64,000 nt of DNA, from positions 19,933-83,932 of IMG/VR virus record IMGVR_UViG_3300025913_000027; one strand, 5' to 3'. The notes under the pieces were generated by a model, which was given only the letters and a program-made list of their open reading frames with translations, had not been told where the DNA came from and did not search any database. A program made the position numbers and the translations under genes. Shown piece after piece: positions 11,898 to 41,913 of this stretch (the first letter of the stretch is position 1; every line of letters starts with the position of its first letter). This stretch comes from a virus.

Positions 11898-12136
11898 AAA
11901 ATAGACCCGCGAAAAGATCAGCAGATAGGCGTCAGCGATATCTCGCTAGGGCGTATCTAGACCTCGGGATCGAAGAGATCGATCCGAAGCTCGCCGAGCT
12001 ATTACGAAGTAAGGCGTCAGCTCAACGGATCAGGGCGTACTTGATCAGCACGGCCAGTAGATAAATCCACGCGGCGGTCAAGGCTAGTGGGAGGATGCAA
12101 CCGACGAGGTCGTCGATCCATGTCGGCGGATCGCGA

Positions 12137-13219
12137 TCAGGCGGCGTCATCTTTCAACTCTTCGTCGAGGTCGATCCACGCCTCGCCGAGCTGCTGCTCA
12201 GTCATCCGCTTGCGAACGGCTTCGAGTGCTCGGCGCTCTAGCCGGGCAAGCTCCAGAGTGATCTCGTCGTGGATATCGAGCAACATCTCAAAATCCTGCG
12301 CTATCGTCGAATGAGAATGTTCGAACAGGTTGCGTTTCGTCACCATCCGCGAAGACCACCATGTCTCCGTCCGCCACTTCGTCTACCGCGCGGCGGTCCC
12401 AGAACCGGTGAATGAAGTCGGGCCGCCCGAATGCCCTGACGGCAGCCCAGTAGCGATCATCCTTGAACCCTACAAAATGCATCATTGATCTTCTCGCACT
12501 GCTCTTTGCATCGGGTCAGGGTCCGCGCCCAGACGATGCCATGCTCTCGGGTCAGATAGCTCCGCGTCGTGCGCGCCGTGTAGCCGAAGGTCCCGCCACG
12601 ATCATAGGCCCAGACTATATGGAAGGTCCGGTCCTCGGCCGTAGCGTGATACTCGTAGCTCGGCTTGCCATTGTGCTCGCCGTCTCGGGTTCGGGTCCAT
12701 TGCAGGGTCATGTTTGGCTCTCCGTGAAGACGTACTCAATCAGGTAGGCGATGTAGCCCGGAACGTTCTCTTGCTTGAGTTTCCGGTTGATCTCCGGCAT
12801 CGCCGGAGTTACGATCTCGGCGAGGACCCGGCGATGAAAGTTAGAGCGGTCGGTGTTCCAAATCTTGATCGCCCGCTTGATCTCGGCCGGGGTCAGGAAG
12901 TCGCGTAGCGTGATCATCAGACCGAGTTCCTTGCGTAGGCCTCCACGGGCGGCTCCCAGAAGTACGTCGCGACCGGACCCGGAGCGACAGCGCCGTCGAT
13001 CAGACGCACGCGCCACGCGGAGCAGCCCCGAGCATTGAGCTTGTCAACCCAGTTGCGGCAGAGATCGCGAGCGTGCTGCTCGCTGTCGGCATCAAGCTCG
13101 CACCATGAGCCATCGTCGCACTCGACGAACACAACGTACTCGGCCTTGCGAGCAACGCGACCCGCGTTGCGCTCGGCAGTGAGAAGGTCGTTGACGGTAG
13201 AGGCAGAGAACTTCGGCAT
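12137..13219 (-). other. Five small leftward ORFs (12137..12346, 12288..12482, 12457..12711, 12708..12917, 12917..13219)
   Basis: Coupled overlaps; divergent from the 13406 operon. Confidence 0.65.
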
Positions 13220-13405
13220 CGCTGTAGCTCCAGCCCGTGATTGGGCATGGATCGAACATACACGGCCGGACCGGGACCGCAAGCAGAAGCCTGCCATATG
13301 GTTTCCAAACTGTAAAGCCCCTTGTGCCGCAGCCGTTAGGATGGTATTAACCATTGGTTCCGGTTTGCCTTGCGTTCGGCTCCGAGGGGGCGTACATCGG
13401 AGCCT

Positions 13406-13639
13406 ATGAGCAAGCGACTGACACAGAAGGCGACGCGCGTGAAGCAAGTGCTTGACGCTGTCGGCAACAGTCATCTCGATCTAGTCCGTGGTGACGGCTA
13501 CTGGTATTTCGTCTACGACGATGTAGCGAAAGGTCGCTATGAGACGCTCAGCGTCTACACGATGCGGCTCGGCGACTTCTCTGTCGAGCAGTGGGCTGCG
13601 GACGGACGTGAGTTCTGTACGAAAATGGAGAGCAAATGA
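13406..13639 (+). CDS. Hypothetical protein
   Basis: GGAG SD, ATG 13406. Confidence 0.7.
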   Translation: MSKRLTQKATRVKQVLDAVGNSHLDLVRGDGYWYFVYDDVAKGRYETLSVYTMRLGDFSVEQWAADGREFCTKMESK

Positions 13640-13974
13640 CCCGCCCAGCGACGCAAGACGAGATATTCGATCATAACCGCGATCTCCGTAAGCATGAAGA
13701 GGTGCGCTATCCGATACAGGTGCATCTTAACGACCTTCGGCTCGCCGACGTGGTCGAGCTTTTCGAGGGGCCGTTCGGCACCGCCGTCGTGACCCAAATC
13801 GACGGGGATGAAGTGACCCTGCATCGCCCTTATGGCGTGACTGGGGACTTCTCCTACACGGGCGGCGTCCCGTACTCGGTCGGTAACGAGGTTTGCAAGT
13901 ACCTCAAGTGCGACACACGCTACACGGCGAAGTCGCACACGTTCAAGGTCTGGCAGCGAAAGGACCTCCGATGA
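13636..13974 (+). CDS. Hypothetical protein
   Basis: ATGA overlap, GGAG SD. Confidence 0.7.
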   Translation: MTRPATQDEIFDHNRDLRKHEEVRYPIQVHLNDLRLADVVELFEGPFGTAVVTQIDGDEVTLHRPYGVTGDFSYTGGVPYSVGNEVCKYLKCDTRYTAKSHTFKVWQRKDLR

Positions 13975-14282
13975 AGGGACGGCTCACAATCATCCGCTCG
14001 GACGGGACGAGGGCGGTCACCGATCTTTCGGCACCGCCAACTCTTGAGCAGCTACGCGAGGGCGTAGGTGGGCCTATAGAAGTCGTCCCGTTCTTCACGA
14101 CATTCGCTGATGCCGCGTGCGTTGCATTCTGCCACGAAGAGGGAAAGCTAGACGGCCTGCCCGTGAACCTCACTGCTCAGGCGCTTTGGGAGACAGCCGT
14201 TGGTGGACCCATACAGACTGACATTCTTGTCGGTCCGATTGTTATCGTCTCGGGCGATACTGAGCTTCTGGAGGCGCTCTGA
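13971..14282 (+). CDS. DUF3846-like protein
   Basis: LEQLREGVGGPIEVV...HEEGKLDGLPVN...DILVGPIVI pattern. Confidence 0.7.
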   Translation: MKGRLTIIRSDGTRAVTDLSAPPTLEQLREGVGGPIEVVPFFTTFADAACVAFCHEEGKLDGLPVNLTAQALWETAVGGPIQTDILVGPIVIVSGDTELLEAL

Positions 14283-14772
14283 TGAAGAAAGCTGTAATCA
14301 TCGTCTTTAATCTGGCGTTCGCAGGCTTCATGATCATGAGCGCGGCTGCGGAGTTTCGGAAGCCATCGCCTGCCTATGGCGTGAAGGCTGTCTTCGAGGT
14401 GTATCGCTGATGGCAAACGTAGTTAAGCAGGGCGTCCACAAGCGGCTGCCGCGCATTACGAATGGGCTGCTTTCGACGGGCGAGTGTCATGTGGAGGGTA
14501 CGCTTCTCTACACGGTCGGCGTATGGGGTCTCGATCCGGATCAGAAGCACATTGAGTATCAGGTGCAGTTCACGGAAGCAGAGATGGTTCGTATCTGCGG
14601 CCAGTGGCTCACGATGAAGGCGCGACGCCTATGACGAGCGATCTACCTGACATTCCTGAATACCTGAAAATCTCGCAGGAGGAACGAAAGGCCGCGTGGG
14701 AAAAATTCCGCGCGGCAAAACCGCTGCCGCCAGAGAAGAAACTCTATCGGCCGCTAACTGGAGCGATACCTG

Positions 14773-15099
14773 ATGACCCAGCAGACAGTTGACGCCGTGC
14801 TCCGCGATCTTGCGGCGCGTGGAGAACTCAATCATGTGAGCCTCATGCCATCGCAGGATGGCAAGATGTGGCGAGCATCATTCGCAATGTGTTCGAAGTT
14901 CGGTATCTCATTCGCCGAGGACGCTGACCCGGCGCAGGCTATCATCCTCGCTTGCACGACGGCGAAGCTGAAACCCCGTCCGGCGGAGAGGCGTCCGACC
15001 TCAATCGATCTCGAAGCCGAGCGCTTGCCGACCCGCGAGGGCCTGCGTGCTGCTGCGGATGCGGTCGAGGCGGCGAGTGATGTAGAAGACCTCATGTAG
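14773..15099 (+). CDS. Hypothetical protein ending DVEDLM
   Basis: Last of small-gene run 14410..15099. Confidence 0.65.
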   Translation: MTQQTVDAVLRDLAARGELNHVSLMPSQDGKMWRASFAMCSKFGISFAEDADPAQAIILACTTAKLKPRPAERRPTSIDLEAERLPTREGLRAAADAVEAASDVEDLM

Positions 15100-15102
15100 T
15101 GC

Positions 15103-15135
15103 CTAGTTGATCCAGCTCTCGGGATGCGCTAAGTT
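15103..15135 (+). promoter_or_regulatory. CTAG-class promoter (candidate late promoter)
   Basis: CTAG-TTGATC-17 nt-TAAGTT; same architecture at 18777, 27376, 31519, 34926. Confidence 0.5.
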
Positions 15136-15171
15136 TAACGCCCAATCCCGAGAGACCCGGAGGCCCCTGTC

Positions 15172-15414
15172 ATGGCCAAGCTCACTGCGAAAGCGCGCAA
15201 GAAAATCCCGTCGTCGAAGTTTGCCCTCCCGGGCAAAAAGGGTAAACCGGGTAAGTATCCCGTGCCCGACAAGGCGCATGCTGCGAACGCCAAGGCCCGC
15301 GCCAGCGAGATGGTAGCGAAGGGCAAGCTCTCTCCCGAGCAGGCTGCCAAGATCAGGCACAAGGCCGACGCCGTTCTCGGCAAGCACGACACCAATTATC
15401 ACAACAAGGGCTGA
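15172..15414 (+). CDS. Small basic protein, DUF6582-like
   Basis: LTAKARKKIPSSKFALP...YPVPDKAHAANAKAR; GGAGG SD. Confidence 0.7.
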   Translation: MAKLTAKARKKIPSSKFALPGKKGKPGKYPVPDKAHAANAKARASEMVAKGKLSPEQAAKIRHKADAVLGKHDTNYHNKG

Positions 15415-15420
15415 CATCTC

Positions 15421-15675
15421 ATGAAGGACGCCCTCGGTCATGGATCAAACGCTTTGGGGACAGCGCTGAAAGAGCGGCTCGCCGAGCAGGCTCGGATGTT
15501 CGGCGCGCAGACCCCTGTCGTATCGACAGCGCCGAAGTCCAATCCGGTCCCGGTCCATCCCGCGATGGCCCCGGTCATTCGCGCGCCCGAAGTTCGGGCA
15601 AACGATTATCGTTCGAATGGGCAAGAGGCGAACCGCAGTCTTGTGGCGAGCATTCGCAATAGGGGGCTCCGATGA
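15421..15675 (+). CDS. KDxxGHGSN-leader protein 1
   Basis: MKDALGHGSNA. Confidence 0.8.
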   Translation: MKDALGHGSNALGTALKERLAEQARMFGAQTPVVSTAPKSNPVPVHPAMAPVIRAPEVRANDYRSNGQEANRSLVASIRNRGLR

Positions 15676-16016
15676 AAGACGCAAAAGGTCACGGCAGCAA
15701 TGCAGGCGCGCACTCGGGCGGCGTCCAGAAGACCCCACAACTCCAGCGCCGCCACTTTGAGGCGATAGCCGCCGACCTGAAAGCCAAGAACGCGAGCCCA
15801 GACGAGGTTCATGCAATGGCTGACAAACTCGCGACCACCAACCCCGGCTTCCGGCGCGACTTCTTTGTCGCGGCAGCGACCGGCGGCAACTATCGGTTCA
15901 AGGGTCCGGGGGCTAAGGCCGAAGCTGTAGCGAAGAAAGCCGGGAGCTTCCAAGCCGCTGCTCGCGCGTTCTCGGACAAGACTGCAACGATGCGCGCCGA
16001 GCGCGGAAAGAAGTAG
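15672..16016 (+). CDS. KDxxGHGSN-leader protein 2
   Basis: MKDAKGHGSNAGAH; cargo RRHFEAIA...NPGFRRDFF. Confidence 0.8.
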   Translation: MKDAKGHGSNAGAHSGGVQKTPQLQRRHFEAIAADLKAKNASPDEVHAMADKLATTNPGFRRDFFVAAATGGNYRFKGPGAKAEAVAKKAGSFQAAARAFSDKTATMRAERGKK

Positions 16017-16108
16017 TAATGGTATGCGCCGCTTGGTCGATGCCCTGTTTAGGCTCGGCCTGCTGCTGGTAGCAGGGAGTATTCTGCTCGCGTTGATAGG
16101 AAGACGGT

Positions 16109-16348
16109 ATGAAGGATGCATTCGGCCACGGGAGCAATGCCAAGCTGACCCAGACGCACGGCCCCGCGTCACCGATGCCGCGCGGCCCGACCGGTAAGGG
16201 TAGCGGCGAGCACAGTTCGGGCGGCATCGCTGTCACGTCGAACGCGCAGGCGGCTCAGGCGTTGATGTCTGTGTTGAAATCTACGCAAGCCCCTATTCAT
16301 CCTGCGATGGCTTTGCGGTCGTCGCCAGACGGCGGATCAGCATCATGA
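16109..16348 (+). CDS. KDxxGHGSN-leader protein 3
   Basis: MKDAFGHGSNA. Confidence 0.8.
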   Translation: MKDAFGHGSNAKLTQTHGPASPMPRGPTGKGSGEHSSGGIAVTSNAQAAQALMSVLKSTQAPIHPAMALRSSPDGGSAS

Positions 16349-16509
16349 GCACAAAGAGGGAAGTCAATGATCAAGTCGCGCAAGCTGCACTTTGCTATGG
16401 CGGCAAGTCTTGCAAGATGCCTACGCACTCTTCAATGGCAAGCACCGAAGAGAACCCCGACGCCAGTGCGACCGACGCCGAGCCCGATAGCGAAGACTAC
16501 GAAGATTAA
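16345..16509 (+). CDS. 54-aa acidic-tailed protein carrying second shared motif (not in ORF track)
   Basis: ATGA overlap; MSTKREVNDQVAQAALCYGGKSCKMPTHSSM...EDYED*. Confidence 0.7.
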   Translation: MSTKREVNDQVAQAALCYGGKSCKMPTHSSMASTEENPDASATDAEPDSEDYED

Positions 16510-16521
16510 GGGAGTTTGATC

Positions 16522-16968
16522 ATGGCGAAAGATGCACTAGGCCACGGCAGCAATGCGCGCGGCGGTAAGAGGGCTCTCGCGAAACCTATTCCGGGTCACC
16601 CGTTCCATACGAAGTCCGACGCCGAACTTCGCTTCATCGCCAAGGATGCAGCCGAGGCCGGGCGCAACGCGCAGGAGATGGGCGATCAGCGCGGCGTCAG
16701 TAAGTACGCCGATCAAGTCGCGGACGCGGCGACTGTCATGGGTTATCGCAATCGCGGCGGCGCGCAGGACCTCGGGTCGCGGGCAGCGAGCGAGCTGGCC
16801 AGCGGCGCGAAGTCGGCGACTGTTCCGGTTCACGACAGCATGAGCACGGATGCGTTCGGCCGTCCGCGCTCCGCCGAAAACCGCGCCGAGTACGACGAAT
16901 ATAATCGTGATCTCGCTCTACGCGCTCGCAACGGACAGGTCGGAAGCGGCATGAAGTTCCGGGGCTGA
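16522..16968 (+). CDS. KDxxGHGSN-leader protein 4
   Basis: MAKDALGHGSNA; AAGGGAG SD. Confidence 0.8.
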   Translation: MAKDALGHGSNARGGKRALAKPIPGHPFHTKSDAELRFIAKDAAEAGRNAQEMGDQRGVSKYADQVADAATVMGYRNRGGAQDLGSRAASELASGAKSATVPVHDSMSTDAFGRPRSAENRAEYDEYNRDLALRARNGQVGSGMKFRG

Positions 16969-16969
16969 C

Positions 16970-17125
16970 ATGGTCGGCCAGAGAATTTCGAAGCCCGTGC
17001 AACCAATTGTTAAGATTGTTCTGCCAAACCGAGTGCGCCGAACGCCGGTCCCTGCTATCAGCCCCGAGCTGGACAAGGCGCTCGACGAATTTGTTGCGGA
17101 CAAGCCGAAGGACATCGCGAAATGA
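16970..17125 (+). CDS. 51-aa hypothetical protein (not in ORF track)
   Basis: MVGQRISKPVQPIVKIV...KDIAK*, fills gap, ATGA overlap with next gene. Confidence 0.55.
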   Translation: MVGQRISKPVQPIVKIVLPNRVRRTPVPAISPELDKALDEFVADKPKDIAK

Positions 17126-17358
17126 AAGACCCACTGGGACATGGCAGCAACGGGCGCGGGGCTTTCAAGGCCCCGAAGCACCAGTACAAGGTCGAGCGCC
17201 ACATCGCATTCCACGGCCAGACAGCGGCCGGGCAGAAGGTGACTACGTCCGGCAACGTCTGGGGCAAGGTCGGCGCGAGCACGCGTCGCGCGGTCGCAGA
17301 GAAGATCGCCCAGTTCACGCGGGTCGATGATAAAAATGCCCGAGTGAGGATCAGGTGA
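17122..17358 (+). CDS. KDxxGHGSN-leader protein 5
   Basis: MKDPLGHGSNG. Confidence 0.8.
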   Translation: MKDPLGHGSNGRGAFKAPKHQYKVERHIAFHGQTAAGQKVTTSGNVWGKVGASTRRAVAEKIAQFTRVDDKNARVRIR

Positions 17359-17684
17359 AAGACGCGAAGGGACACGGCAGCAACGCGCACAGTGACGGGG
17401 TCGAGAAAATCCCGGGTACAGCTTACGCGGTGCATCGTGACCACAACATTCAGCTAACTGCGATCAACGAAGCGCATGCGAGAGTGCTCGCCCAATTCCC
17501 TAAAGGCCCGATGGGGCTGACCCCGGACCACGTCAGGGCGACGCCGGAGTACAAGACTGCCAAAGCAAATTTCGATAGGTCCTTCGCTGCACTTCGGGAC
17601 CACAACGCATTCATGACCAAGAACTTCAAGAAAGAAATGAAGGCGGATCGCGACGCGAGACGACAGGCGAGGTTAAAGAAATGA
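17355..17684 (+). CDS. KDxxGHGSN-leader protein 6
   Basis: GTG start, KDAKGHGSNAH; cargo FPKGPMGLTPDHVRATPEY. Confidence 0.8.
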   Translation: MKDAKGHGSNAHSDGVEKIPGTAYAVHRDHNIQLTAINEAHARVLAQFPKGPMGLTPDHVRATPEYKTAKANFDRSFAALRDHNAFMTKNFKKEMKADRDARRQARLKK

Positions 17685-18133
17685 AGGACGCGAAGGGACA
17701 CGGCAGCAACGCGCACAACGCGGGCGTCGCGGCCCTCCCGAAGAGCTGGTCGGGTATCGGCTATCACGGGACTGCCTCGAAGTTCGAAGAGTTCAAGGCG
17801 GCCGAGCCTGTCACGCCAGTTGGCAAAGACCTCAAGGGTATCTACTTTTCTGGAGATGCAAGATCGGCATCGGGATACGCGGCCCGGGCGAGCAGACGCG
17901 AAGGGGCGGATCGACAGAGCGTAATCGAGGCTCAGCTCCACATGAATAATCCGCTCGACATCACGGCGGCGATCAAAAACGGACAACGTAGAGGGCTATC
18001 ATTCGGAGATGCGAAGCGGGAGGCGCTCAAAGGCGTGCAGCCGCACCACGACGGCGTCATCTTCAAGGGCAACTCGGCGAACCCGCCGGAGTACATCGTG
18101 TTTCATCCATCGCAGATAAAGAGGACGAAATGA
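17681..18133 (+). CDS. KDxxGHGSN-leader protein 7, ADP-ribosyltransferase-like (ART-PolyVal-like) cargo
   Basis: YHGT..F..F, GIYFS...A.GYA, L.MNNPL, HDGVIF, EYIVFHPSQIK. Confidence 0.75.
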   Translation: MKDAKGHGSNAHNAGVAALPKSWSGIGYHGTASKFEEFKAAEPVTPVGKDLKGIYFSGDARSASGYAARASRREGADRQSVIEAQLHMNNPLDITAAIKNGQRRGLSFGDAKREALKGVQPHHDGVIFKGNSANPPEYIVFHPSQIKRTK

Positions 18134-18579
18134 AGGACGCGAAGGGACATGGCAGCAACGCGCACAATTCCGGTATAGCGAATATCGGGAAACTTCGACT
18201 GCATCCGAACGTCATCAAAACTGTCGTCAGGAACCCCGGCGGATTTTCTGTCAAGCCGGTAAACGGTCAACAGCCCGAGAGCGGCTATATGGTTTCGATA
18301 CCCGGGCACACTCAGATCGTATCCGAGGCGGCGCTGCGCGGGCCGCAGGGTCGAGATATAATTTCGCAATACGCCAACGAGCATGCAGGCGTGCTCCGCG
18401 ATCCCAAGGCGCATATCGGCGGATGGACGGACAAGGAAAGCGGTAAGACCTACCTCGACGTGTCCCATCGGTATGATAACAAAGGCGATGCAGTGAAAGC
18501 CGGAAAGGCTCACAATCAAATCGCCATATGGGATGTGAAACATGGCGCAGAAATCCGGACGGGCGGGACAGGAGAGTAG
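18130..18579 (+). CDS. KDxxGHGSN-leader protein 8
   Basis: MKDAKGHGSNAH; cargo GYMVS...GGWTD...YLDVS...NQIAIWD. Confidence 0.8.
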   Translation: MKDAKGHGSNAHNSGIANIGKLRLHPNVIKTVVRNPGGFSVKPVNGQQPESGYMVSIPGHTQIVSEAALRGPQGRDIISQYANEHAGVLRDPKAHIGGWTDKESGKTYLDVSHRYDNKGDAVKAGKAHNQIAIWDVKHGAEIRTGGTGE

Positions 18580-18582
18580 ATC

Positions 18583-18780
18583 ATGGCGGACCCGATCACA
18601 GTTTCGGACGACGAGGCTGCGAGCGTGCTGGCCAATGGCCATCCTAAAAGCAAGCCTCCGTCCCTTCACGACGGCAATCCGTTCCCTGCGACTAGCACGG
18701 GCGTTGGCTCGGCTCCGGGCGCGAACGGCCCAGCTACGACAGGGGCGATAGGTCCCGGAGGCCCTCTAGCAAGTTGCTAG
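18583..18780 (+). CDS. Small G/P-rich protein with second shared motif
   Basis: VSDDEAASVLANGHPKSKPPSLH; GGAG SD. Confidence 0.7.
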   Translation: MADPITVSDDEAASVLANGHPKSKPPSLHDGNPFPATSTGVGSAPGANGPATTGAIGPGGPLASC

Positions 18781-18846
18781 TTGTTTGCGCGCCGTCGAGC
18801 CTGTAAGCTTGGCAGAGAAATTCCATTTTTGCGCGAGGGCCACATC

Positions 18847-19158
18847 ATGGTTGCAACTCATCCCGGCATGTCCGATCAGACCGACAGCAACATCGCTCGC
18901 GATGGTGCGGCTAAGCGGACCCAGACCAAATTTCCGGTCAAGGAGGGCATGAAGGACATGACCACCTATTCGGCCGGTCCGGCTAACCCCGGCGTAGGCC
19001 CGGACGCGTCTTCGGCCAACCCGCTTGATCCCGAGCCCAAGTCAAAGAAGTCGGGCGAGGTCAAGGCCTCGTGGGGCATGCGAGATGCAAACGGCCAATC
19101 GGTGAACGGCGAACTCGGCAAGGCAGTTCTCGCGGAGGCTGCAAATCTCGGAAGGTAA
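18847..19158 (+). CDS. Low-complexity hypothetical protein
   Basis: ATG 18847 after GAGG; CTAG-class promoter upstream. Confidence 0.7.
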   Translation: MVATHPGMSDQTDSNIARDGAAKRTQTKFPVKEGMKDMTTYSAGPANPGVGPDASSANPLDPEPKSKKSGEVKASWGMRDANGQSVNGELGKAVLAEAANLGR

Positions 19159-19300
19159 AAAGATCATGGTGTGGCTGCAAGCGATCTCATGCGTCTTCTT
19201 TGCTTTCCTTGTTGCCATGCCGATCATTGATCCCGAGATGGAGTTCAAGAAGCCCGACACGCCAGATGCGTGGACCGAGCCTCTTTAAGGGAGAAATACC

Positions 19301-19621
19301 ATGGTGAATGCAGTTGACGCTCAGAGCGCAGACGGTGAAGTTTTCATCGGTTCGCGTGAGAAGGCCAAAAACGGGTATGGGCAGAACGGCTATCATGGGC
19401 CGTCGAGCGATCTTCCCGGGCAGGCCACGCGTGCGAACCGTGACTTCGGTCTCGCCGCTGATCCGTCAGCGAGTGCAGGCGACTGGCAGACCCGCAAGGT
19501 CTCGAAGGACGCCTACCCGACCACGTTCGGGATGAAGGCTCCCGGCGAACCCGCCAAAGTCCCTGACGCCAACATCCGGCGCGCGTCCAAGCAGGCCGCG
19601 CCCGGGTCATTCCAGCGCTAA
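19301..19621 (+). CDS. Low-complexity hypothetical protein
   Basis: AAGGGAG SD, 106 aa. Confidence 0.7.
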   Translation: MVNAVDAQSADGEVFIGSREKAKNGYGQNGYHGPSSDLPGQATRANRDFGLAADPSASAGDWQTRKVSKDAYPTTFGMKAPGEPAKVPDANIRRASKQAAPGSFQR

Positions 19622-19633
19622 AAGGAGACCGCA

Positions 19634-19981
19634 GTGTTGAAACTCGCATCGGCCGCTCTGGCGGCATTGCTCGTTCTGTCCCCCGCACTCGCCTCGACCA
19701 AAAAGCACTCGGCTGCCCCCGCGAAGACATGCACCACTCTTGATGCCCTCTCCGTCAAGCTCGAAGGCGTCCCGCTCTCTGTCAAGCTCGAAGGCGAGAA
19801 GCTCGGCGCGTTCCGGGAGAAGGTTCAAGGCCTCCCGGAGACAGTCGATCTTATCGCGGTCTTTGGTAAGAAGGGGAGCGGAAATTTCTTTGCCGTGTTC
19901 TTCGCCAAGGGGTGTGCGGTAGGCTGGGGCGCGGTCCCGGCCGCACTCATTGAGAAGCCCGCTGACGATGGGTCCATCTGA
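19634..19981 (+). CDS. Exported/periplasmic protein with signal peptide
   Basis: MLKLASAALAALLVLSPALA signal; AAGGAG SD. Confidence 0.7.
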   Translation: MLKLASAALAALLVLSPALASTKKHSAAPAKTCTTLDALSVKLEGVPLSVKLEGEKLGAFREKVQGLPETVDLIAVFGKKGSGNFFAVFFAKGCAVGWGAVPAALIEKPADDGSI

Positions 19982-20134
19982 ATGGCTGAGACTGTGAACA
20001 CGTGTAAACCGTCGAGTTTACACAAGCGGCTCCAGCGTCAACTCGAAGGTATCGAGAAGCATCTGGAACAGTTCCCCAACGACAAGCTCAGTCAGGTCCG
20101 AGCATCCACGATCCGGGCCGAACTCAGCAAATAG
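19982..20134 (+). CDS. 50-aa hypothetical protein (not in ORF track)
   Basis: MAETVNTCKPSSLHKRLQRQLEGIEKHL...*, starts immediately after previous stop. Confidence 0.55.
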   Translation: MAETVNTCKPSSLHKRLQRQLEGIEKHLEQFPNDKLSQVRASTIRAELSK

Positions 20135-20238
20135 GCGCGACCGCGTATATCCCTGAGATATTCGCTGTCGCGTATTTTTGTGGCGCGCATGGGCGCGCTC
20201 CTTCGACATGATGTCGATGCGCGATGGAGGATACCCGC

Positions 20239-21048
20239 ATGAGCGGCAAAGTCGATGATCTAGCAGATTTGCTCGGCCCCGAACCGGAGGTCGAAAACCT
20301 TGTTGACGAGGCTCCAGCCACAGCTCCCGCATCTCGCCCGATGGGCGCGGAAAGCCGAGCCCTCCTAGAACGGTCGCGCACTTATCCAGTCAATCGCGCG
20401 GCCAAGAAGAACACCCCTGAAATGCTCCGCCGACTTTTGAGCTACGCCGCAGAGATGCCCGTGGGCACCACCGCCGCGCGTCGCGCTGGTATCTCCTACA
20501 CGACCCTCCGGTATTGGCTCCAGAAATCTCTCGAAGGAAAACCGGGGGATGGTTTCGATGTCGTCATGGGCGACGCTGACGAGAATGGCACTGAGGATAA
20601 CACAGAGCGGTTTCATATCGCATGGGACCGAGCGATGGAAATGGGCGTCGGTCTCGTGCAGGAAGCGACGATCAAGCGCGCCATGGGCTACGAAGAGGTC
20701 CTGACTTATCGAGGGCGCGTACAGTATCAGTACGACCCTGAGAAGTGCGCGCTATCGCGTGAACTCGGTCTTCCGGAATTTGTCCCTGAGAATTATCTGC
20801 TCGACGAGTTCGGTGCGCCCCGCCCGGAGACGGTCTGGAAGATCGACCCCGATCTTGCGATGTTCATCCTCAAGACGCACATGCCGGAGAAGTATGGCAA
20901 CAAGGCCAGCGTTGATGTCAACGTGCGCGGCGGAGTGCTCGTCGTCGGCGTGCGAGCGGCTACCTCGGAGGCTCTCAATCAGATCGAAGAAGAAAATCTT
21001 CGGGCCAAGCGACCGGCGGTCACGTTCGTTGAGGAGGACGACGAGTAA
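20239..21048 (+). CDS. terS: Terminase small subunit
   Basis: HTH (AARRAGISYTTLRYW), LAMFILK..MPEKYG motif, coupled to terL. Confidence 0.75.
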   Translation: MSGKVDDLADLLGPEPEVENLVDEAPATAPASRPMGAESRALLERSRTYPVNRAAKKNTPEMLRRLLSYAAEMPVGTTAARRAGISYTTLRYWLQKSLEGKPGDGFDVVMGDADENGTEDNTERFHIAWDRAMEMGVGLVQEATIKRAMGYEEVLTYRGRVQYQYDPEKCALSRELGLPEFVPENYLLDEFGAPRPETVWKIDPDLAMFILKTHMPEKYGNKASVDVNVRGGVLVVGVRAATSEALNQIEEENLRAKRPAVTFVEEDDE

Positions 21049-22631
21049 TGGGATTTCCGTGCGTAGCAGAGTTTCGACGAGAAGGCGCGGAGTACGTCCC
21101 GTATGTGCTGGACGACAACAATGTCCTGCGCGCGGTCGCGTGGGCTCCGCAGCCGGGATCACAAGAGCTATTCTTGATGGACCCCACGGTCGAGGTTCTC
21201 TACGAAGGAACGCGCGGCCCCGGCAAAACCGACGCGCTCATCATGGATTTCTGTCAGGAAGTCGGCAAGGGATGGGGCGCGGAGTGGAAGGGCATTCTCT
21301 TCCGACAGACCCATCCGCAGTTGCGCGACATCATTGAAAAATCCAAGAAGTGGATCAAGCGTATCTGGCCGGACGCGGTCTACAACGAAGTGAAGACGAT
21401 GTGGGAGTGGCCCACGGGCGAGCGCCTTTACTTCGCGCACTTCAACACGCCGAGCCAATACAGCGACTATCACGGCCACGCCTATCCATGGATCGGCTGG
21501 GAAGAATTGACGACGTGGGCGAACCCGGACTGCTACAAGGTCATGTTCTCGTGCTCGCGCTCGACCATCAAGGGCATGCCTCGTAAGGTACGCTCGACAA
21601 CGAACCCTTACGGCGTCGGCCACAACTGGGTCAAGTCCCGCTGGCGGCTGCCGATCAGCGGGATGATCAATGGCAAGCGCATCACGGTCGGGCCGCTCAT
21701 CACGGACAGCGTTGACCAAGATGGCAATCCCGAACCGCCGCGTCGCGCCATCCACGGCTACCTCGACGAGAACGTTCTGCTGCTGCACGCTGACCCCGGA
21801 TACAAGGGGCGCATCAAGGCCGCCGCACGAAACGCATCCGAACTCGCGGCGTGGATGGAGGGCTCGTGGGACATCGTCGCGGGCGGCATGTTCGACGACA
21901 TTTGGTATGAGTACCGCGATACGATTGTGATGGAGCCATTCGACATCCCACCGGGCTGGAAAATCTATCGGGCCTACGACCACGGATCGTCGAAGCCATT
22001 CTCGGTCGGCTGGTACGCGGTTAGCGATGGGACAGACTTCAAGCTGCGCGACGGGCGCACGCGCTCGACCGTGCGAGGCGACAAGTTCCGCTTCAAGGAG
22101 TGGTATGGTTGGCGCGGTCAGCCGAACGAAGGTTCGCGCATGCTCGTCGCCGACATCGCGAAGGGCATCATTGAGCGCGAGATCAAATGGGGTCTCCGCG
22201 CTGCCGACGCGTCGTGGACCCGCGTCAGCCGAGGACCGGCCGACAGTTCGATCTTCGACGACAACACGAACGGCTCCGATGTTTCGATTGCGACCGACTT
22301 CGAGAAGCCAGTCACGATCAACGGCGTCAAGCACCGGGGCATCTTCTGGGAGAAAGCCGACAAGGGGCCGGGCTCTCGCGAGCAAGGCTGGGAGCAAATC
22401 CGAAAGCACCTCAAGGCAACCAAGCGCCCGCCGGGCGGCTTCCGGGAAATCCCCGGGCTCTTCATCACGACCGAATGCCAACATTGGCTTCGGTGCGTTC
22501 CCGTGCTCCCGCGCGACGAGACTAAGATCGACGACGTTGACGACGACAGCGAAGACCATAACGGTGACGAGACGAGATATTTCCTGCGCTTCGAAGCGCC
22601 GACCATGCGGTCCGGGCGTGTAGGGGCTTGA
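21048..22631 (+). CDS. terL: Terminase large subunit
   Basis: PQPGSQ, Walker A GTRGPGKT, Walker B IGWEEL, STTNP coupling motif, nuclease YDHGSSKPF and EDHNGDETRY. Confidence 0.95.
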   Translation: MGFPCVAEFRREGAEYVPYVLDDNNVLRAVAWAPQPGSQELFLMDPTVEVLYEGTRGPGKTDALIMDFCQEVGKGWGAEWKGILFRQTHPQLRDIIEKSKKWIKRIWPDAVYNEVKTMWEWPTGERLYFAHFNTPSQYSDYHGHAYPWIGWEELTTWANPDCYKVMFSCSRSTIKGMPRKVRSTTNPYGVGHNWVKSRWRLPISGMINGKRITVGPLITDSVDQDGNPEPPRRAIHGYLDENVLLLHADPGYKGRIKAAARNASELAAWMEGSWDIVAGGMFDDIWYEYRDTIVMEPFDIPPGWKIYRAYDHGSSKPFSVGWYAVSDGTDFKLRDGRTRSTVRGDKFRFKEWYGWRGQPNEGSRMLVADIAKGIIEREIKWGLRAADASWTRVSRGPADSSIFDDNTNGSDVSIATDFEKPVTINGVKHRGIFWEKADKGPGSREQGWEQIRKHLKATKRPPGGFREIPGLFITTECQHWLRCVPVLPRDETKIDDVDDDSEDHNGDETRYFLRFEAPTMRSGRVGA

Positions 22632-22662
22632 CGCCGTTAACCATAACTGATAGAGGGACCCG

Positions 22663-23055: not shown

Positions 23056-23056
23056 C

Positions 23057-24924: not shown

Positions 24925-25172
24925 GTGATCCGGCTGGGCCGCACATCGTAAAAACCTTTCACGAGGCCATCGATATCCTCGACGCCTGTGAACCGGCGAT
25001 ACGGGACATGATCGAGACGCACTTGATGGATGTTGCCGGGATTAACAAGACACGGGTCAGCGATGCCATGCTGTCCCGTGACGAGCTGACGAAGCGCATC
25101 GTTGCGCTTCGTCATCACCACATCAAGGCGGCATTCCGCCATCTGAGAGAGCATCTACCCAGTGACATATAA
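24921..25172 (+). CDS. Hypothetical protein
   Basis: GTGA overlap, 83 aa. Confidence 0.6.
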   Translation: MSDPAGPHIVKTFHEAIDILDACEPAIRDMIETHLMDVAGINKTRVSDAMLSRDELTKRIVALRHHHIKAAFRHLREHLPSDI

Positions 25173-26151
25173 CCCCGCCCAACCCCGCAACAATCATGGC
25201 GAGTTCGGCACGACCGACGTAGCCTTGAAGGGGCCGCAACAAACTGGAGGCGCGAGTGCAGTCGTTACCGAACGGCCGATCAATGTTGCTGCTCACAAGG
25301 GGGCGACCACTCCCGAAGAGGCGCAGGCGCAAGCGGTCCTTGTCGCGGCTGGAGCAAAACCTCTTGATGGGTTACCTCAGAAGCCTATCGCGCTTGAAGG
25401 ACAGTGGTATGTTCCGGGACCAATCGGGCGGCTCCGCGACGCGGCCAGTGAGTATATGAGATCGGCCGGGCTGCCCTACAGCCCGCCAACCGAATACGCG
25501 AAGCTCGATAAGGAGCGGGCTGCACGGATCGCGACTGAGTACGACAACGAGAAAAACGACCCGACCGATCCGAAGGTGAAGGCGAGCTACGAGGCGATGG
25601 CCAAGGAAACTCTCGCGCAGTGGGAAGTGATCAAGAAGACGGGTCTTCAAGTCGAGTGGGTCAAGCCCGGGCAGAAGGACCCCTACGCCCTGTCGCCGCG
25701 TCTCGCGGCGATGGACGTGAGCGAGAACAACCATTGGTGGGGATTTCCCACGGACCTCGGGTACGGCTCCGGCGTCGGCGCGAGCGACATGAGCAAAGAC
25801 AATCCGCTGCTGCGACCGACCGGCGAAGTGATCGACGGGCGCAAGGTTGTCGTCAACGATGTCTTTCGCATCGTGCATGACATGATGGGCCATTTGAAGG
25901 AAGGCAATGGTTTCAGAGCCGAGGGCGAGGAAAACGCTTGGCGCTCCCATGCCGCGATGTATTCGGACCTCGCGCGTCCGGCGATGACGAACGAAACGCG
26001 CGGACAAAATTCGTGGGTCAACTATGGCCCGCATGGTGTGACCAACCGAACGGCTGACGCGGAGCATACGATCTTCGCTCCGCAGAAGATTGGGCTCATG
26101 CCAGACTGGACAGAGAACGAGGGTCGGATCGATGACAAACGCCCTCATTGA
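25162..26151 (+). CDS. Head-region protein with polyvalent-protein-like (zincin-like) domain; possible ejected protein
   Basis: N-terminal NPAQPRNNHGEFG; FRIVHDMMGH...GEENAW..H..MYS...ETRGQNSWVN. Confidence 0.65.
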   Translation: MTYNPAQPRNNHGEFGTTDVALKGPQQTGGASAVVTERPINVAAHKGATTPEEAQAQAVLVAAGAKPLDGLPQKPIALEGQWYVPGPIGRLRDAASEYMRSAGLPYSPPTEYAKLDKERAARIATEYDNEKNDPTDPKVKASYEAMAKETLAQWEVIKKTGLQVEWVKPGQKDPYALSPRLAAMDVSENNHWWGFPTDLGYGSGVGASDMSKDNPLLRPTGEVIDGRKVVVNDVFRIVHDMMGHLKEGNGFRAEGEENAWRSHAAMYSDLARPAMTNETRGQNSWVNYGPHGVTNRTADAEHTIFAPQKIGLMPDWTENEGRIDDKRPH

Positions 26152-26467
26152 GGAAGAACACGAGCACGACGGCGAGGCGTGGGCCAAGCACCGTATTCGG
26201 ACTGGACAGAAGAAGGTCCTGAAAATTCACGGGCACGAACTCGCGCGCTGGGCGAGGCACATCGCTGCTCAGGATGCCCAGCGCATCCACACTGCAATCA
26301 GCGTCGGCCTCACGGCTGGCGAGGATAACACGGATATCGCCCATCGCGTCATAGGCAGCCGCCGTAACAACGGCTCCAACGGCGTGACGGAGATCACGAG
26401 ACAGCACATCCTCCGCCTTGGTCGAGGACTGCTGCATAAGCGTAAATCCCGCATGAGCGGTGCCTGA
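26132..26467 (+). CDS. Short MuF/minor-head-like protein (N-terminal part only)
   Basis: RIHTAISVGLTAGE...IAHRVIGS...GVTEITRQH; position between portal and scaffold. Confidence 0.5.
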   Translation: MTNALIEEEHEHDGEAWAKHRIRTGQKKVLKIHGHELARWARHIAAQDAQRIHTAISVGLTAGEDNTDIAHRVIGSRRNNGSNGVTEITRQHILRLGRGLLHKRKSRMSGA

Positions 26468-27801: not shown

Positions 27802-30308
<2,507 letters not shown>

Positions 30309-40443: not shown

Positions 40444-41061
40444 ATGCCCAAAGACGCACTGGGACACGGAAGTAATCCTAGAGGCCTCGCGGGCGAACAC
40501 TTGCCCGTGTGGTATCACGGCTCGCCGACCGGCTTTCCCGGTCTGACTGGCCCTATCCATGTCGGCACTTATCGCGCCGCCCGCATGGCGCTTGAAGCGC
40601 GCATCGGCGTGCCTGCGGATGGGAAAGGCTGGGACGGGACGCGAGAGTATGGAAAGACGCTGCTCGCCGGAAAGGAAACGCTCGCTAAAATGGAGAGTGG
40701 CGAGAAGCCCTACTACAATAAGTATCCGGCGTCCGGATACAATGCAGGTAGTTGCGACGAAGAGGTCCCGCAAAAAGACTACTATCCAGATCAGCGAAAG
40801 AGCTTGCCGACGATGGGGAGGGACCGAACGCCAATGTCATTGACCATGCGCCCGGCTGTCCGGGCCTATCAGATAAATGGCCCGATGAAGAACTCTCCGG
40901 GAACGCCGTACACCGACACGCGAGCCAATGCTCTTGCCCGAGCGCAGCAGACCAAGGGCAACGGCAAGCACGGCTTCTATTACACAAATGATGCCGAAGA
41001 CAGCGGCAGTATCTCGGCTGTCGTGCCGAACCACGAGCACTTAACAGGATTGGTAGAATAG
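40444..41061 (+). CDS. KDxxGHGSN-leader protein 9, ART-like cargo
   Basis: MPKDALGHGSN; WYHGS, IHVGT..AA, GFYYTNDAEDSGSISAVV. Confidence 0.7.
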   Translation: MPKDALGHGSNPRGLAGEHLPVWYHGSPTGFPGLTGPIHVGTYRAARMALEARIGVPADGKGWDGTREYGKTLLAGKETLAKMESGEKPYYNKYPASGYNAGSCDEEVPQKDYYPDQRKSLPTMGRDRTPMSLTMRPAVRAYQINGPMKNSPGTPYTDTRANALARAQQTKGNGKHGFYYTNDAEDSGSISAVVPNHEHLTGLVE

Positions 41062-41062
41062 C

Positions 41063-41533
41063 ATGCCCGGCGGATTTGAAAACATTCTCCCCGCGAATGC
41101 GGATACGATCCTAACGATCTCATCGTTCGGGAACATGCTGTATCAGGCGCGTGGCCTGACGCAAACCCTGTCCGTGATCGGCGAGGCAACTCAGCAGGAC
41201 CGCACGATCAACGGCACTCTCGTCGATCTCTCAGTCGCGCAGTTCCGCAAGTATTCCTCGAAGATCACCTCTCCGAGCGATACGAACGCTCCGCCGCTCG
41301 ACGGCGTCTTCCCCGGTATGATCGTCACCGTACAGTGCGCGGTCGGGCTCTCGTATCTCACGAGCGGCGGGAACGGCCCCAACCATCGCACGCCAGTCTC
41401 CGGCTCTGTCTATACCGAAGGAGCATACACCTTCTATCGACCCGAACTCACGATGATGGTCAAGACCGTCGAAACTCAGTTTGATGAATGGAAGAACGTG
41501 GTAGGCTGGACCTTAGAGCTTGAGGAAGTCTGA
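41063..41533 (+). CDS. Distal tail protein
   Basis: ARGLTQTL, RTINGTLVDLS..QFRKY, GWTLELEEV; follows TMP. Confidence 0.7.
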   Translation: MPGGFENILPANADTILTISSFGNMLYQARGLTQTLSVIGEATQQDRTINGTLVDLSVAQFRKYSSKITSPSDTNAPPLDGVFPGMIVTVQCAVGLSYLTSGGNGPNHRTPVSGSVYTEGAYTFYRPELTMMVKTVETQFDEWKNVVGWTLELEEV

Positions 41534-41913
41534 TGAAAGATGCCAAGGGTCACGGCAGTAACGCGCATAATTCCGGCATCGATAAAATTCCGGGCTGGAG
41601 CCCGGTCAAACTTGTGCCGACGAATAGCCTCCGTCCGCGCCCAGAGAATACCGCGATGATTGAGAAATTCAAAGCGCGAGATGCGGCCAGCGAGAGGGCT
41701 TTTCGCGAAGCATATCCCGGAGAGAAATACGTGCCGTATCCGGGCGACATGCGCTACAAAGTAGACGAGATCAGAAAGACGATCCGGACAGGGGGCTCTC
41801 TTCCGCCGCTCGCGGTCAACAAAGACAACACGATAGAAGACGGCGAAAACCGCTGGAATGCCTATAAGGCCGAAGGCGTAAAGATGATCCCGGTTAGGAT
41901 TAAAACTAGATGA
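41533..41913 (+). CDS. KDxxGHGSN-leader protein 10, ParB/Srx-like cargo
   Basis: MKDAKGHGSNAH; LRPRPEN, LPPLAV...IEDGENRWNAY...IPV. Confidence 0.75.
   Translation: MKDAKGHGSNAHNSGIDKIPGWSPVKLVPTNSLRPRPENTAMIEKFKARDAASERAFREAYPGEKYVPYPGDMRYKVDEIRKTIRTGGSLPPLAVNKDNTIEDGENRWNAYKAEGVKMIPVRIKTR

What the first reader, a model, noticed from the sequence alone, without database searches (positions are those of the whole stretch)
15421..18579. Family of unrelated cargo proteins sharing an N-terminal KDxxGHGSN leader: candidate addressed effector system
Seen: eight ORFs here (15421, 15672, 16109, 16522, 17122, 17355, 17681, 18130) and two more at 40444 and 41533 begin M(x)KD(A/P)(K/L/F)GHGSN. Five extend it to AHxxG(V/I). 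The bodies are unrelated. Codons vary synonymously (GGT/GGC/GGA, CAT/CAC, TCA/AGC/AGT), so selection acts on the peptide. Many genes are coupled by ATGA/GTGA overlaps, and the cluster lies upstream of the packaging genes. Known analogy: T4 internal proteins carry a short shared N-terminal capsid-targeting sequence that loads diverse anti-host proteins into the head. Inference: this is a distinct packaging or ejection tag on a swappable arsenal of host-takeover or counter-defence proteins. No prohead protease is evident in the window, so the tag may stay uncleaved.
Basis: partly seen in the sequence, partly recalled or inferred. Interest (0 to 1): 0.92.

Follow-up and report, generated by a model that had tools for sequence, protein, structure and literature searches.

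The report
Shared leader peptide on phage cargo
Ten small, basic and mostly unrelated proteins of this uncultured phage start with the same nine-residue peptide, which in other phages sits at the joints of large head-associated multi-domain proteins, so it probably marks proteins carried in the virus particle, though this has not been shown.

Summary
Ten + strand ORFs begin M(x)KD[AP]xGHGSN, and the motif occurs nowhere else in the 83.9-kb genome. Codons vary synonymously and upstream DNA is unrelated.

The tag is clade-wide. In the window plus 57 related viral loci, all 249 instances lie 1-2 codons after a start codon. Bodies are diverse and strongly basic. The few that can be named are ADP-ribosyltransferase, ParB-like and GNAT.

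The peptide is not private to this clade. A profile search found 455 proteins, including large proteins with 2-4 internal copies at module joints, one behind an XkdF-type head protease. In T4-like marine phages it directly follows a CTS-like propeptide that ends in a gp21-type L-x-E|A site. This genome matches none of five head-protease families.

Best reading, about 0.5: the array is a "polyvalent" head-effector protein split into genes, each module encoding directly the N-terminus that cleavage exposes elsewhere. Loading into the virion is inferred, not shown.

The scan noted the same tag on another genome (e1-6071071). I found no description in print.

The parts
15421..15675 (+). Leader gene 1, 84 aa, MKDALGHGSN. 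Carries motif 3 (..KSNPVPVHPAM..). pI 11.2.
15672..16016 (+). Leader gene 2, 114 aa, MKDAKGHGSNAGAHSGGV. Its cargo family is seen in 14 clade sequences (the window and 13 loci).
16109..16348 (+). Leader gene 3, 79 aa, MKDAFGHGSN. Carries motif 3 (..LKSTQAPIHPAM..).
16522..16968 (+). Leader gene 4, 148 aa, MAKDALGHGSNARGG. Has the KPIPGHPFH family body plus motif 3.
17122..17358 (+). Leader gene 5, 78 aa, MKDPLGHGSNGRGAFKAPKHQYKVE. The family is seen in 12 clade loci.
17355..17684 (+). Leader gene 6, 109 aa, GTG start. The body matches phrog_7560 (4.3e-12).
17681..18133 (+). Leader gene 7, 150 aa. The cargo is ART-PolyVal, PF18760 (8.7e-14). It also matches positions 551-671 of the 1664-position phrog_21376.
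18130..18579 (+). Leader gene 8, 149 aa, a conserved member of the cluster (full-length relatives in 22 clade proteins). In the AF2 model, residues 1-19 have pLDDT below 50 and the body at 25-149 is confident. The body is fused to the 25162-type domain in P0090 and in mycobacteriophage Alice gp99.
40444..41061 (+). Leader gene 9, 205 aa, MPKDALGHGSNPRG. It starts one base after the tape-measure stop. The slot and the family are conserved in L033 and L016/L039.
41533..41913 (+). Leader gene 10, 126 aa. It has a weak ParB_N hit (2.7e-4, below the Pfam cut-off). It lies between the distal-tail gene and the hub gene, in a slot whose cargo varies (ART in L042, a 33-aa stub in L035, an unclassified 145-aa body in L033).
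15172..15414 (+). Context: an 80-aa basic protein (phrog_16160, 1.7e-22) that lies just upstream of the leader cluster in 26 of 57 loci. It has no leader.
25162..26151 (+). Context: a 329-aa protein, two genes after the portal gene, that starts with the sister motif (M-T-Y-N-P-x3-R-N-x-H-G-E-F). Longer relatives carry extra modules, each headed by [FY][DN]P..R[DN]..G.[FW].
26090..26467 (+). Context: a 125-aa fragment like head-morphogenesis (MuF-type) proteins (phrog_241, 3.9e-9). It is fused to the 25162 family in P0088.

Best explanation
The KDxxGHGS peptide is the N-terminal 'head' of modules that belong to the phage's packaged, probably injected, protein cargo. This array is the split-gene form of a polyvalent head-effector protein.

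In phages that encode a prohead protease, the modules are strung together in polyproteins or sit behind a removable capsid-targeting propeptide. Cleavage inside the procapsid would then expose (A)KDxxGHGS as the new N-terminus.

This siphophage clade has no recognisable head protease. Each module is its own tightly coupled gene, so translation gives that N-terminus directly and the peptide stays on the protein.

The disordered, glycine-rich peptide most likely works as a common handle, read by some conserved virion component or by the DNA, that keeps basic effector modules in the head or tail and lets them leave with the DNA.

Shown: the motif, its strict N-terminal position here, its internal and junction position elsewhere, the cargo types, the basic charge and the absence of protease families.

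Inferred: cleavage at the joints, presence in virions, and what reads the peptide.
For: 1. Position in the clade. 249 of 249 instances lie 1-2 codons after a start codon. 198 of 249 have an SD-like 4-mer upstream, against 19% at random positions. By my hand addition's match column (131), 108 of the 239 instances in the loci were not selected by the ATG-containing search pattern.

2. All 57 loci belong to one phage clade. The loci that include these genes show TerL at 49-92% and portal at 63-94% identity to the window. The cluster always lies just upstream of TerS on the same strand.

3. Profile search of 1.84 billion representatives: 455 hits at E<=1e-3. Of the 150 listed, 127 start at residue 1 and 23 do not. 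I read all 23. Eighteen are proteins with 1-4 internal copies at module joints, 4 look like mis-called starts (M-KD a few residues in), and 1 (P0124) is a false hit.

4. P0123 is an XkdF-type protease domain (PF14550, 2.2e-15) followed by three KD-headed modules. The L113 protein has the same domain (2.8e-20). It has an internal '..PVMFNDVVKA|KDAKGHGSN..' joint and ends '..PVMFNDVLAKS', that is, where a joint would lie.

5. In T4-like records, ligase-like and nucleotidyltransferase-like proteins start M-x-[ST]-F-x-E-L-F-E-A-KDAGGHGS. Peptidase_S77 is present in 3 of 5 records and in 2 of 2 near-complete ones. L-x-E|A is the gp21 rule (PMC9026906, passages read).

6. Protease present versus absent. 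Internal-motif records: XkdF-type match in 3 of 5, one of them below the cut-off; the two records without a match are 14% and 27% complete. Own genome: 0 matches to S78, S78_2, S77, ClpP or S49.

7. Cargo. ART-PolyVal x4, Arr-ms x1, ParB_N x1 and GNAT x1 among 141 representatives. The 18130 body is fused to the 25162-type head-module domain in P0090 and in Alice gp99, which is encoded among head genes. Related Pamexvirus phages fuse an ART to MuF (PMC9206674, passages read).

8. Charge. 189 complete leader proteins have median pI 9.9 and 94% are above pI 8. For 34 other ORFs of the window that I picked by hand, the median is 5.4 and 21% are above 8.

9. The leader is disordered in the AF2 model, with pLDDT below 50 for residues 1-19.

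10. Two leader genes sit inside the tail-tip operon.
Against: - No virion proteome, expression data or cultured relative exists. The cluster DNA and the 16522 protein have no match in 50,697 phage records.
- Cleavage at the joints is inferred only.
- The protease correlation rests on 11 records. Several are fragments, and this genome is itself only 80% complete by CheckV.
- In T4-like phages a separate CTS-like peptide precedes the motif, so the motif need not be a loading signal at all.
- In cultured Methylophilales phage Melnitz, the homologous proteins keep the CTS-like start but lack the KD motif. The motif is therefore dispensable for those cargos.
- Only 7 of 141 cargos have a Pfam name, so 'effector' is an extrapolation for the rest.
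- Exact conservation across very different phages argues for a conserved reader. None has been identified.
- A later check of this scan marked the bold reading of the sister motif (e1-3065813) as fallen. The ground was not shown to me.
Confidence: 0.5

Rival explanations
1. The motif is the P'-side part of maturation cleavage sites. The conserved peptide serves substrate recognition by assemblin-fold prohead proteases. In this clade it is recognised by an unrecognised phage protease or a host protease, which trims the leader.
For: - Internal copies sit at joints next to XkdF-type protease domains.
- A gp21-type L-x-E|A site lies one residue before the motif in T4-like phages.
- The residues upstream of KD differ between proteins but repeat within one protein, as lineage-specific P-side specificity would give.
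Against: - Five prohead-protease families are absent from this genome.
- A cleavage-recognition element has no obvious use at the extreme N-terminus, with nothing upstream to remove. Yet it is strictly kept there in 249 of 249 cases.
- gp21 needs only L/I-x-E (PMC9026906).
Confidence: 0.15
2. The peptide acts after delivery. It is a common docking or protective peptide that takes every module to one conserved host component, or shields the N-terminus. Packaging is achieved by other means or does not occur.
For: - The same nine residues are kept in GC-rich soil siphophages, AT-rich marine T4-like phages and a 197-kb phage. This fits a conserved, non-phage partner better than fast-evolving capsid proteins.
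- In T4-like phages and XkdF polyproteins, separate targeting elements seem to exist.
Against: - There is no candidate host partner.
- The motif also heads helical, scaffold-like modules fused to head proteases, which are not expected to act in the host.
- The gene positions, next to the terminase genes and inside the tail operon, point to late, virion-linked expression.
Confidence: 0.15
3. These are intracellular, non-virion proteins. The leader is a shared regulatory element of a non-packaged gene family, such as a translation-enhancing start, a degron or a recognition site for a modifying enzyme.
For: - Another shared-leader family in this scan was re-read as an enzyme recognition site (e1-127136, not tested here).
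- The invariant residues K, D, H and S are of the polar, reactive kind.
- The cluster lies between replication-side genes and the terminase genes, so its timing is not known (one search found no informative promoter or terminator).
Against: - No modifying enzyme is conserved beside the clusters. The conserved neighbours are small proteins with no Pfam hit.
- Internal copies in head-protease polyproteins and behind CTS-like propeptides are not explained.
- Codon variation excludes an mRNA-level element.
Confidence: 0.1

Closest known systems
T4 internal proteins (IPI-III, Alt) with the capsid-targeting sequence
   Same: A short shared N-terminal peptide sits on unrelated, basic proteins, some of them anti-host (an ADP-ribosyltransferase among them). 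The cargo repertoire varies between relatives (PMC9026906 and PMC3012670, passages read).
   Different: - The sequences are not similar.
- The T4 tag is a propeptide removed by gp21 at L/I-x-E. Here no gp21-type protease is found and the leader has no L-x-E.
- In T4-like marine phages the KD motif lies downstream of a CTS-like peptide, so the two are separate elements.
Polyvalent proteins of phages and conjugative elements (Iyer et al. 2017, PMC5512222)
   Same: - Shared domain repertoire (ART-PolyVal, ParB-type, GNAT) and a context of portal-terminase head genes.
- The paper notes that 'solo' versions of the domains lie next to virion genes (passages read).
- The KD motif joins modules in large proteins of this kind.
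   Different: - Here each module is a separate small gene.
- The paper's main text has no hit for linker, junction-type or N-terminal motif terms. Its supplementary alignments could not be seen.
MuF polymorphic toxins and MuF-ART minor head proteins (Jamet et al. 2017, PMC5576092; AXL1 gp16, PMC9206674)
   Same: Effector domains ride into the head with a head-morphogenesis protein encoded beside the portal gene. The capsid type of this phage is related to Pamexvirus-like phages (MCP about 57% identical).
   Different: - There is no Phage_Mu_F match in this genome, only a 125-aa head-morphogenesis-like fragment.
- The effectors are not fused to it.
Sister motif [FY][DN]P-x3-R[DN]-x2-G-[RKE]-[FW]
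   Same: - It heads the 25162 family and each extra module of its longer relatives.
- It occurs together with the KD motif in the same polyproteins: P0150, P0121 and the L113 protein.
- It shares the core basic-Asp-x-x-Gly-basic/His.
   Different: It has an aromatic residue where the KD motif has Gly-Ser, and it is longer on the N-terminal side. Whether the two motifs are homologous or only analogous was not tested.

Membership tests
T4-type CTS-tagged internal proteins | A shared N-terminal peptide of about 10 residues on otherwise unrelated head proteins | tested here: met
   Ten genes in the window and 249 instances in the clade, all N-terminal.
T4-type CTS-tagged internal proteins | The peptide is a propeptide removed by a gp21-family prohead protease at L/I-x-E | tested here: not met
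   There is no Peptidase_S77 match in the own genome and the leader has no L-x-E. The genome is only 80% complete.
T4-type CTS-tagged internal proteins | The peptide is sufficient to load a protein into the head | not testable with these tools
   This needs reporter fusions and virion analysis.
Polyvalent proteins (Iyer et al. 2017) | 2 to 15 domains of disparate activity in one polypeptide | tested here: not met
   The leader proteins are 27-205 aa, median 126. Most hold one body, and some hold two short modules.
Polyvalent proteins (Iyer et al. 2017) | Domain repertoire of the family (ART-PolyVal, ParB-type, GNAT, LPDs) | tested here: inconclusive
   7 of 141 representatives match such Pfam families and 134 match none.
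Polyvalent proteins (Iyer et al. 2017) | Encoded with the portal-terminase head genes of a phage | tested here: met
   The cluster ends 1.6 kb upstream of TerS on the same strand, and this is conserved in the loci that contain TerS.
MuF polymorphic toxins | An N-terminal Phage_Mu_F domain fused to a C-terminal toxin | tested here: not met
   PF04233 gives 0 matches in the own genome at E<=10. The leader proteins have no such domain.

The most novel reading that the evidence does not exclude
KDxxGHGS, and perhaps its sister motif R[DN]xxG[RK][FW], is a universal 'neo-N-terminal' signal of tailed phages. Once it is at a free N-terminus, by separate genes here and by prohead-protease cleavage elsewhere, a conserved part of the particle (portal channel, DNA or tape measure) reads it and licenses the module to be retained and then expelled with the genome. 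If so, the injected proteome of uncultured phages could be read from sequence, and the tag could carry foreign proteins into cells.
Probability: 0.2. Interest if true: 0.85.

Novelty: new variant of a known kind. Interest (0 to 1): 0.62.

Why it matters
Packaged and injected phage proteins act first in an infection, taking over the host and countering its defences. They are hard to recognise from sequence.

A short, strictly conserved peptide could be a sequence-level marker for this cargo. It heads split effector genes in one clade, sits at the joints of head-protease polyproteins in others, and follows T4-type propeptides in a third. It would link three known delivery schemes: the T4 capsid-targeting sequence, polyvalent proteins and MuF fusions.

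It also suggests why some phages have arrays of tiny tagged genes. A phage without a head protease cannot cut a polyprotein, so it encodes each module separately.

The leader-tagged arrays are a ready catalogue of mostly unknown, fast-exchanging proteins to screen for anti-defence activity. In this clade there are 36 BLAST clusters among 195 cargos.

Tried and rejected
- **Complex prediction.** The chains were the leader alignment against the major capsid protein, the scaffold and 25162 (residues 41-329). The verdict was no answer (score 0.05, mark 0.32, controls not run). It counts neither for nor against binding.
- **Fold searches.** Neither model matched anything clearly. The 25162 model (pLDDT 84) gave Foldseek best E 0.76 and VIA-align wide best Z 2.2. 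The 18130 model gave Foldseek best E 0.37. Function stays open, and this does not show that the folds are new.
- **ESM Atlas for 25162.** Best score was 0.83, with unnamed viral clusters only.
- **Cultured relatives.**
  - Cluster DNA (blastn) and the 16522 protein (tblastn) have no match in the 'phages' collection.
  - The 18130 body matches 207 records, 199 of them mycobacteriophages, without the leader.
- **Context of P0123 and P0129.** The search for related loci in viral contigs found no relative.
- **Promoter and terminator scan of 12000-23500.** Counts were at or below shuffle expectation, so it gives no information on timing.
- **Genome-contig scan.**
  - It gave 15 matches, which by my own estimate from the pattern's information content is about the number expected by chance.
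  - Five loci carry 6 genuine N-terminal instances. All five are alphaproteobacterial MAG contigs: Hyphomicrobiales, Xanthobacteraceae and three uncultured.
  - This hints at the host group. There are no prophage-like clusters.
- **Literature.** Searches for 'GHGS' + phage (173 papers, 15 listed, none relevant), for five leader strings (0 papers) and for six spellings of the sister motif (0 papers) found nothing in print. Jamet 2017 has no hit for motif, linker or cleavage terms.
- **Rejected explanations.** Chance is rejected. A DNA- or RNA-level element is rejected. Recent duplication as the only cause is rejected because upstream and downstream DNA are unrelated.
- **Withdrawn.** I thought from memory that P0129 and the L083 protein start with a DUF2213-like domain. 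Pfam gave no hit for P0129, so I drop the claim.

Full report
**1. The observation**

Ten + strand ORFs start with M(x)KD[AP][KLF]GHGSN. Eight lie at 15421-18579 and two in the tail-tip operon at 40444 and 41533. A six-frame scan of the window and of the whole 83,932-base record finds the nine-residue motif only at these ten N-termini. The six other GHGS or HGSN strings lack the KD context. The window is bases 19933-83932 of that record.

At the seven invariant residues, 167 of 315 codon pairs differ, all synonymously. The 30 nt upstream are 29% identical on average, against 75% in the leader. Selection is therefore on the peptide. The start-stop overlaps (ATGA/GTGA) follow from the coordinates.

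**2. The phage**

The window holds TerS (20224), TerL (21048), a portal (23057, phrog_145), a scaffold (26506, phrog_206) and a collagen-like protein (28035). It also holds a glycosyltransferase (30354), a major capsid protein (31675, phrog_247), an adaptor (33999) and a tape measure (38143-40443).

The capsid protein is about 57% identical to those of Roseobacter, Pseudomonas (PaMx25/NP1-like), Xanthomonas and Sphingomonas siphophages. The record is an IMG/VR virus that CheckV rates 80% complete.

None of five prohead-protease Pfam families matches it: S78, S78_2, S77, ClpP and S49. Phage_Mu_F does not match either. A 125-aa ORF (26090) resembles part of head-morphogenesis proteins (phrog_241, 3.9e-9).

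**3. The tag in the clade**

A degenerate DNA pattern for M-K-D-x-x-G-H-G-S-N found 57 stretches in IMG/VR. Those that contain the genes have TerL at 49-92% and portal at 63-94% identity to the window, so they form one clade.

The gene order is shared: g14773, g15172, the leader cluster, g18583, g18844, g19301, TerS, TerL, portal.

- In the window plus loci there are 249 instances (198 distinct proteins of 27-205 aa, median 126).
- All 249 lie 1 codon (207) or 2 codons (42) after a start codon.
- 198 of 249 have an SD-like 4-mer upstream, against 19% at random positions.
- By my count, 131 instances were selected by the ATG-containing pattern. The other 108 locus instances were not, and they are N-terminal too.

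Leader genes also occur right after the portal gene (L001) and in the two tail slots (L033, L016/L039, L042, L035).

The ART body of 17681 lies in the main cluster in L014 and in the Dit-hub slot in L042 (67% identity), with the leader in both places. The Dit-hub slot holds a ParB-like body here, an ART in L042 and a 33-aa stub in L035. L033 has an unclassified 145-aa body there, and L039 shows no motif-bearing gene between Dit and hub.

**4. The cargo**

- Of 141 representatives, Pfam names 7: ART-PolyVal x4, Arr-ms x1, ParB_N x1 (below the cut-off) and GNAT x1.
- PHROGs adds only unnamed families, some of them long proteins in which the cargo is one segment.
- BLAST single-linkage clustering of 195 cargo parts gave 36 clusters, 25 of them singletons. 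The largest, with 111 members, is held together by shuffled short motifs.
- Those motifs are [A]HxxG[VI] in 70 of 198 proteins and a roughly 20-residue motif (..ALASGPKSAPVPVHDSM..) in 43 of 198, at variable positions.
- The proteins are strongly basic: median pI 9.9, and 94% of 189 are above pI 8. For 34 other hand-picked ORFs of the window, the median is 5.4 and 21% are above 8.
- An AF2 model of the 18130 family puts residues 1-19 below pLDDT 50 and the body at 80-95. The leader is thus a disordered extension.

**5. Links to head proteins**

The 18130 body matches positions 297-398 of phrog_3170. The protein at 25162, two genes after the portal gene, matches positions 198-267 of the same family.

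In mycobacteriophage Alice the two segments are one 433-aa protein, gp99. It is encoded among head genes, and no KD motif joins the segments. In P0090 the order is reversed.

The 25162 family has at least 601 relatives. All 28 aligned members carry [FY][DN]P-x3-R[DN]-x2-G-x-[FW] at the N-terminus or after an N-terminal extension. Longer members add ART-like, zeta-toxin-like or 18130-like modules, and most modules are headed by that sister motif.

**6. The tag outside the clade**

A profile of 141 leader N-termini (30 residues each), searched against 1.84 billion representatives, gave 455 hits at E<=1e-3. Of the 150 listed, 127 start at residue 1. I read the other 23.

- Eighteen are proteins of 216-1590 aa with one to four internal copies at evident module joints, such as '..AKAKDAxGHGS[NE]KRG..'.
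- Four look like mis-called starts.
- One (P0124) is a false hit.

P0123 is an XkdF-type protease domain (PF14550, 2.2e-15) followed by three KD-headed helical modules.

A second DNA scan added further cases. The L113 protein (528 aa) has the XkdF domain (2.8e-20). It carries both motif kinds in tandem near its N-terminus, an internal '..PVMFNDVVKA|KDAKGHGSN..' joint, and a natural C-terminus '..PVMFNDVLAKS' exactly where a joint would be.

Of five records with internal copies, three have an XkdF-type match. One of these is the complete 197-kb genome and one is below the cut-off. The other two records are 14% and 27% complete. S78 and S77 gave nothing in these five.

**7. T4-like phages**

In AT-rich records of 110-167 kb, a ligase-like protein (K-x-D-G motif, my reading) and a nucleotidyltransferase-like protein of 1000-1270 aa begin M-[KI]-[ST]-F-x-E-L-F-E-A-KDAGGHGSEKHH or MKSFLTYLKEE-KDALGHGSD.

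- Peptidase_S77 (gp21) is present in 3 of 5 such records, and in 2 of 2 near-complete ones.
- Each of three such genomes has two motif copies.
- gp21 cuts after Glu in L/I-x-E, first seen at a Glu-Ala bond, and the first ten residues of IPIII are the capsid-targeting sequence (PMC9026906, passages).

Cleavage at L-F-E|A would leave A-KDAGGHGS. That is the same N-terminus as the MAKD genes of the siphophage clade would have if their initiator Met is removed, as is usual before Ala (established knowledge).

In cultured phage Melnitz the homologues keep a CTS-like start (MKKFSEIIEA..) but have no KD motif. The motif is therefore an optional element and is distinct from the CTS-like peptide.

**8. 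Reading**

The simplest account of all three contexts is that KDxxGHGS is the N-terminal head of a mature module of capsid-internal cargo.

- Where a prohead protease exists, modules can be made as polyproteins or behind a propeptide. Because prohead proteases act inside the procapsid (established knowledge), the modules would be inside the particle.
- This clade has no recognisable protease, so each module is a separate, translationally coupled gene.

This explains the strict N-terminal position, the small gene size, the cassette exchange and the polyvalent-type cargo.

It does not tell what reads the peptide. Conservation across very different phages suggests a conserved reader, such as the portal, DNA or a host factor. 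The one complex prediction gave no answer.

The steps 'cleaved at the joint', 'present in virions' and 'ejected' are inferences. I put the virion-cargo reading at about 0.5. The rivals are:

- a protease P'-side recognition element (0.15);
- a post-delivery function (0.15);
- a non-virion regulatory peptide (0.1).

**9. Known and new**

The concept is known from the T4 CTS and internal proteins, from polyvalent proteins (PMC5512222, which notes solo domains beside virion genes) and from MuF-toxin or MuF-ART fusions (PMC5576092; PMC9206674).

The peptide itself was not found in print by three full-text searches.

Within this scan the same tag was already reported on another genome, with a similar reading (e1-6071071). 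The sister motif was also reported (e1-3065813), and a later check marked its bold reading as fallen without showing me the ground. These notes are leads, not evidence.

I class the finding as a new variant of a known kind.

Noticed in passing
window 25162-26151: A 329-aa protein, two genes after the portal gene, with at least 601 relatives. The AF2 model is confident (pLDDT 84, pTM 0.86). No match was found in the PDB by Foldseek (best E 0.76) or by VIA-align wide (best Z 2.2). Conserved His, Asp and Glu residues (..VHDMMGH....GEENAWRSH..) suggest an enzyme. Relatives are fused to zeta-toxin-like, ART-like and 18130-like modules.
   Followed up: partly
window 15421-16968, and 43 of 198 clade leader proteins: A second conserved peptide of about 20 residues (..[SD][ND]AxAAxALASGxKSxxxP[VI]H[DPG][SA]M..) occurs at variable positions (residues 21-113) in otherwise different leader proteins. 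The leaderless ORF 18583-18780 carries a degenerate copy. Its function is unknown; it could be a second docking or processing site.
   Followed up: partly
L059, L074, L066 and similar loci (T4-like marine phages); L147 (phage Melnitz): Several neighbouring genes start with a T4-CTS-like peptide, M-K-[KS]-F-x-[ETY]-[LI]-x-x-E. They are a ligase-like gene, a nucleotidyltransferase-like gene of 650-1270 aa and small ORFs. This suggests packaged nucleic-acid enzymes in marine T4-like phages.
   Followed up: partly
window 27802-28038 and 28035-30308: A 78-aa ORF whose start (..[17 protein letters not shown]..) resembles the scaffold C-terminus (..NNPWSKEGWNMTKQGAL..). It lies just before, and overlaps the start of, a 757-aa collagen-like protein (Collagen repeats, 2.8e-59). 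A glycosyltransferase gene follows, between the scaffold and capsid genes. I saw the resemblance by eye only.
   Followed up: no
window 15172-15414: An 80-aa basic protein (phrog_16160, 1.7e-22) with a ..YPVPDKAHAANAKARAS.. stretch lies just upstream of the leader cluster in 26 of 57 loci. A similar stretch (..YPIENKGDLSNAIRAIGRA..) occurs in the L112 protein, which also carries a KD joint.
   Followed up: no
window 16345-16509 and 16970-17125: Two small ORFs without the leader (54 and 51 aa) are embedded in the cluster and coupled by ATGA overlaps to leader genes. I did not test whether they are real genes.
   Followed up: no
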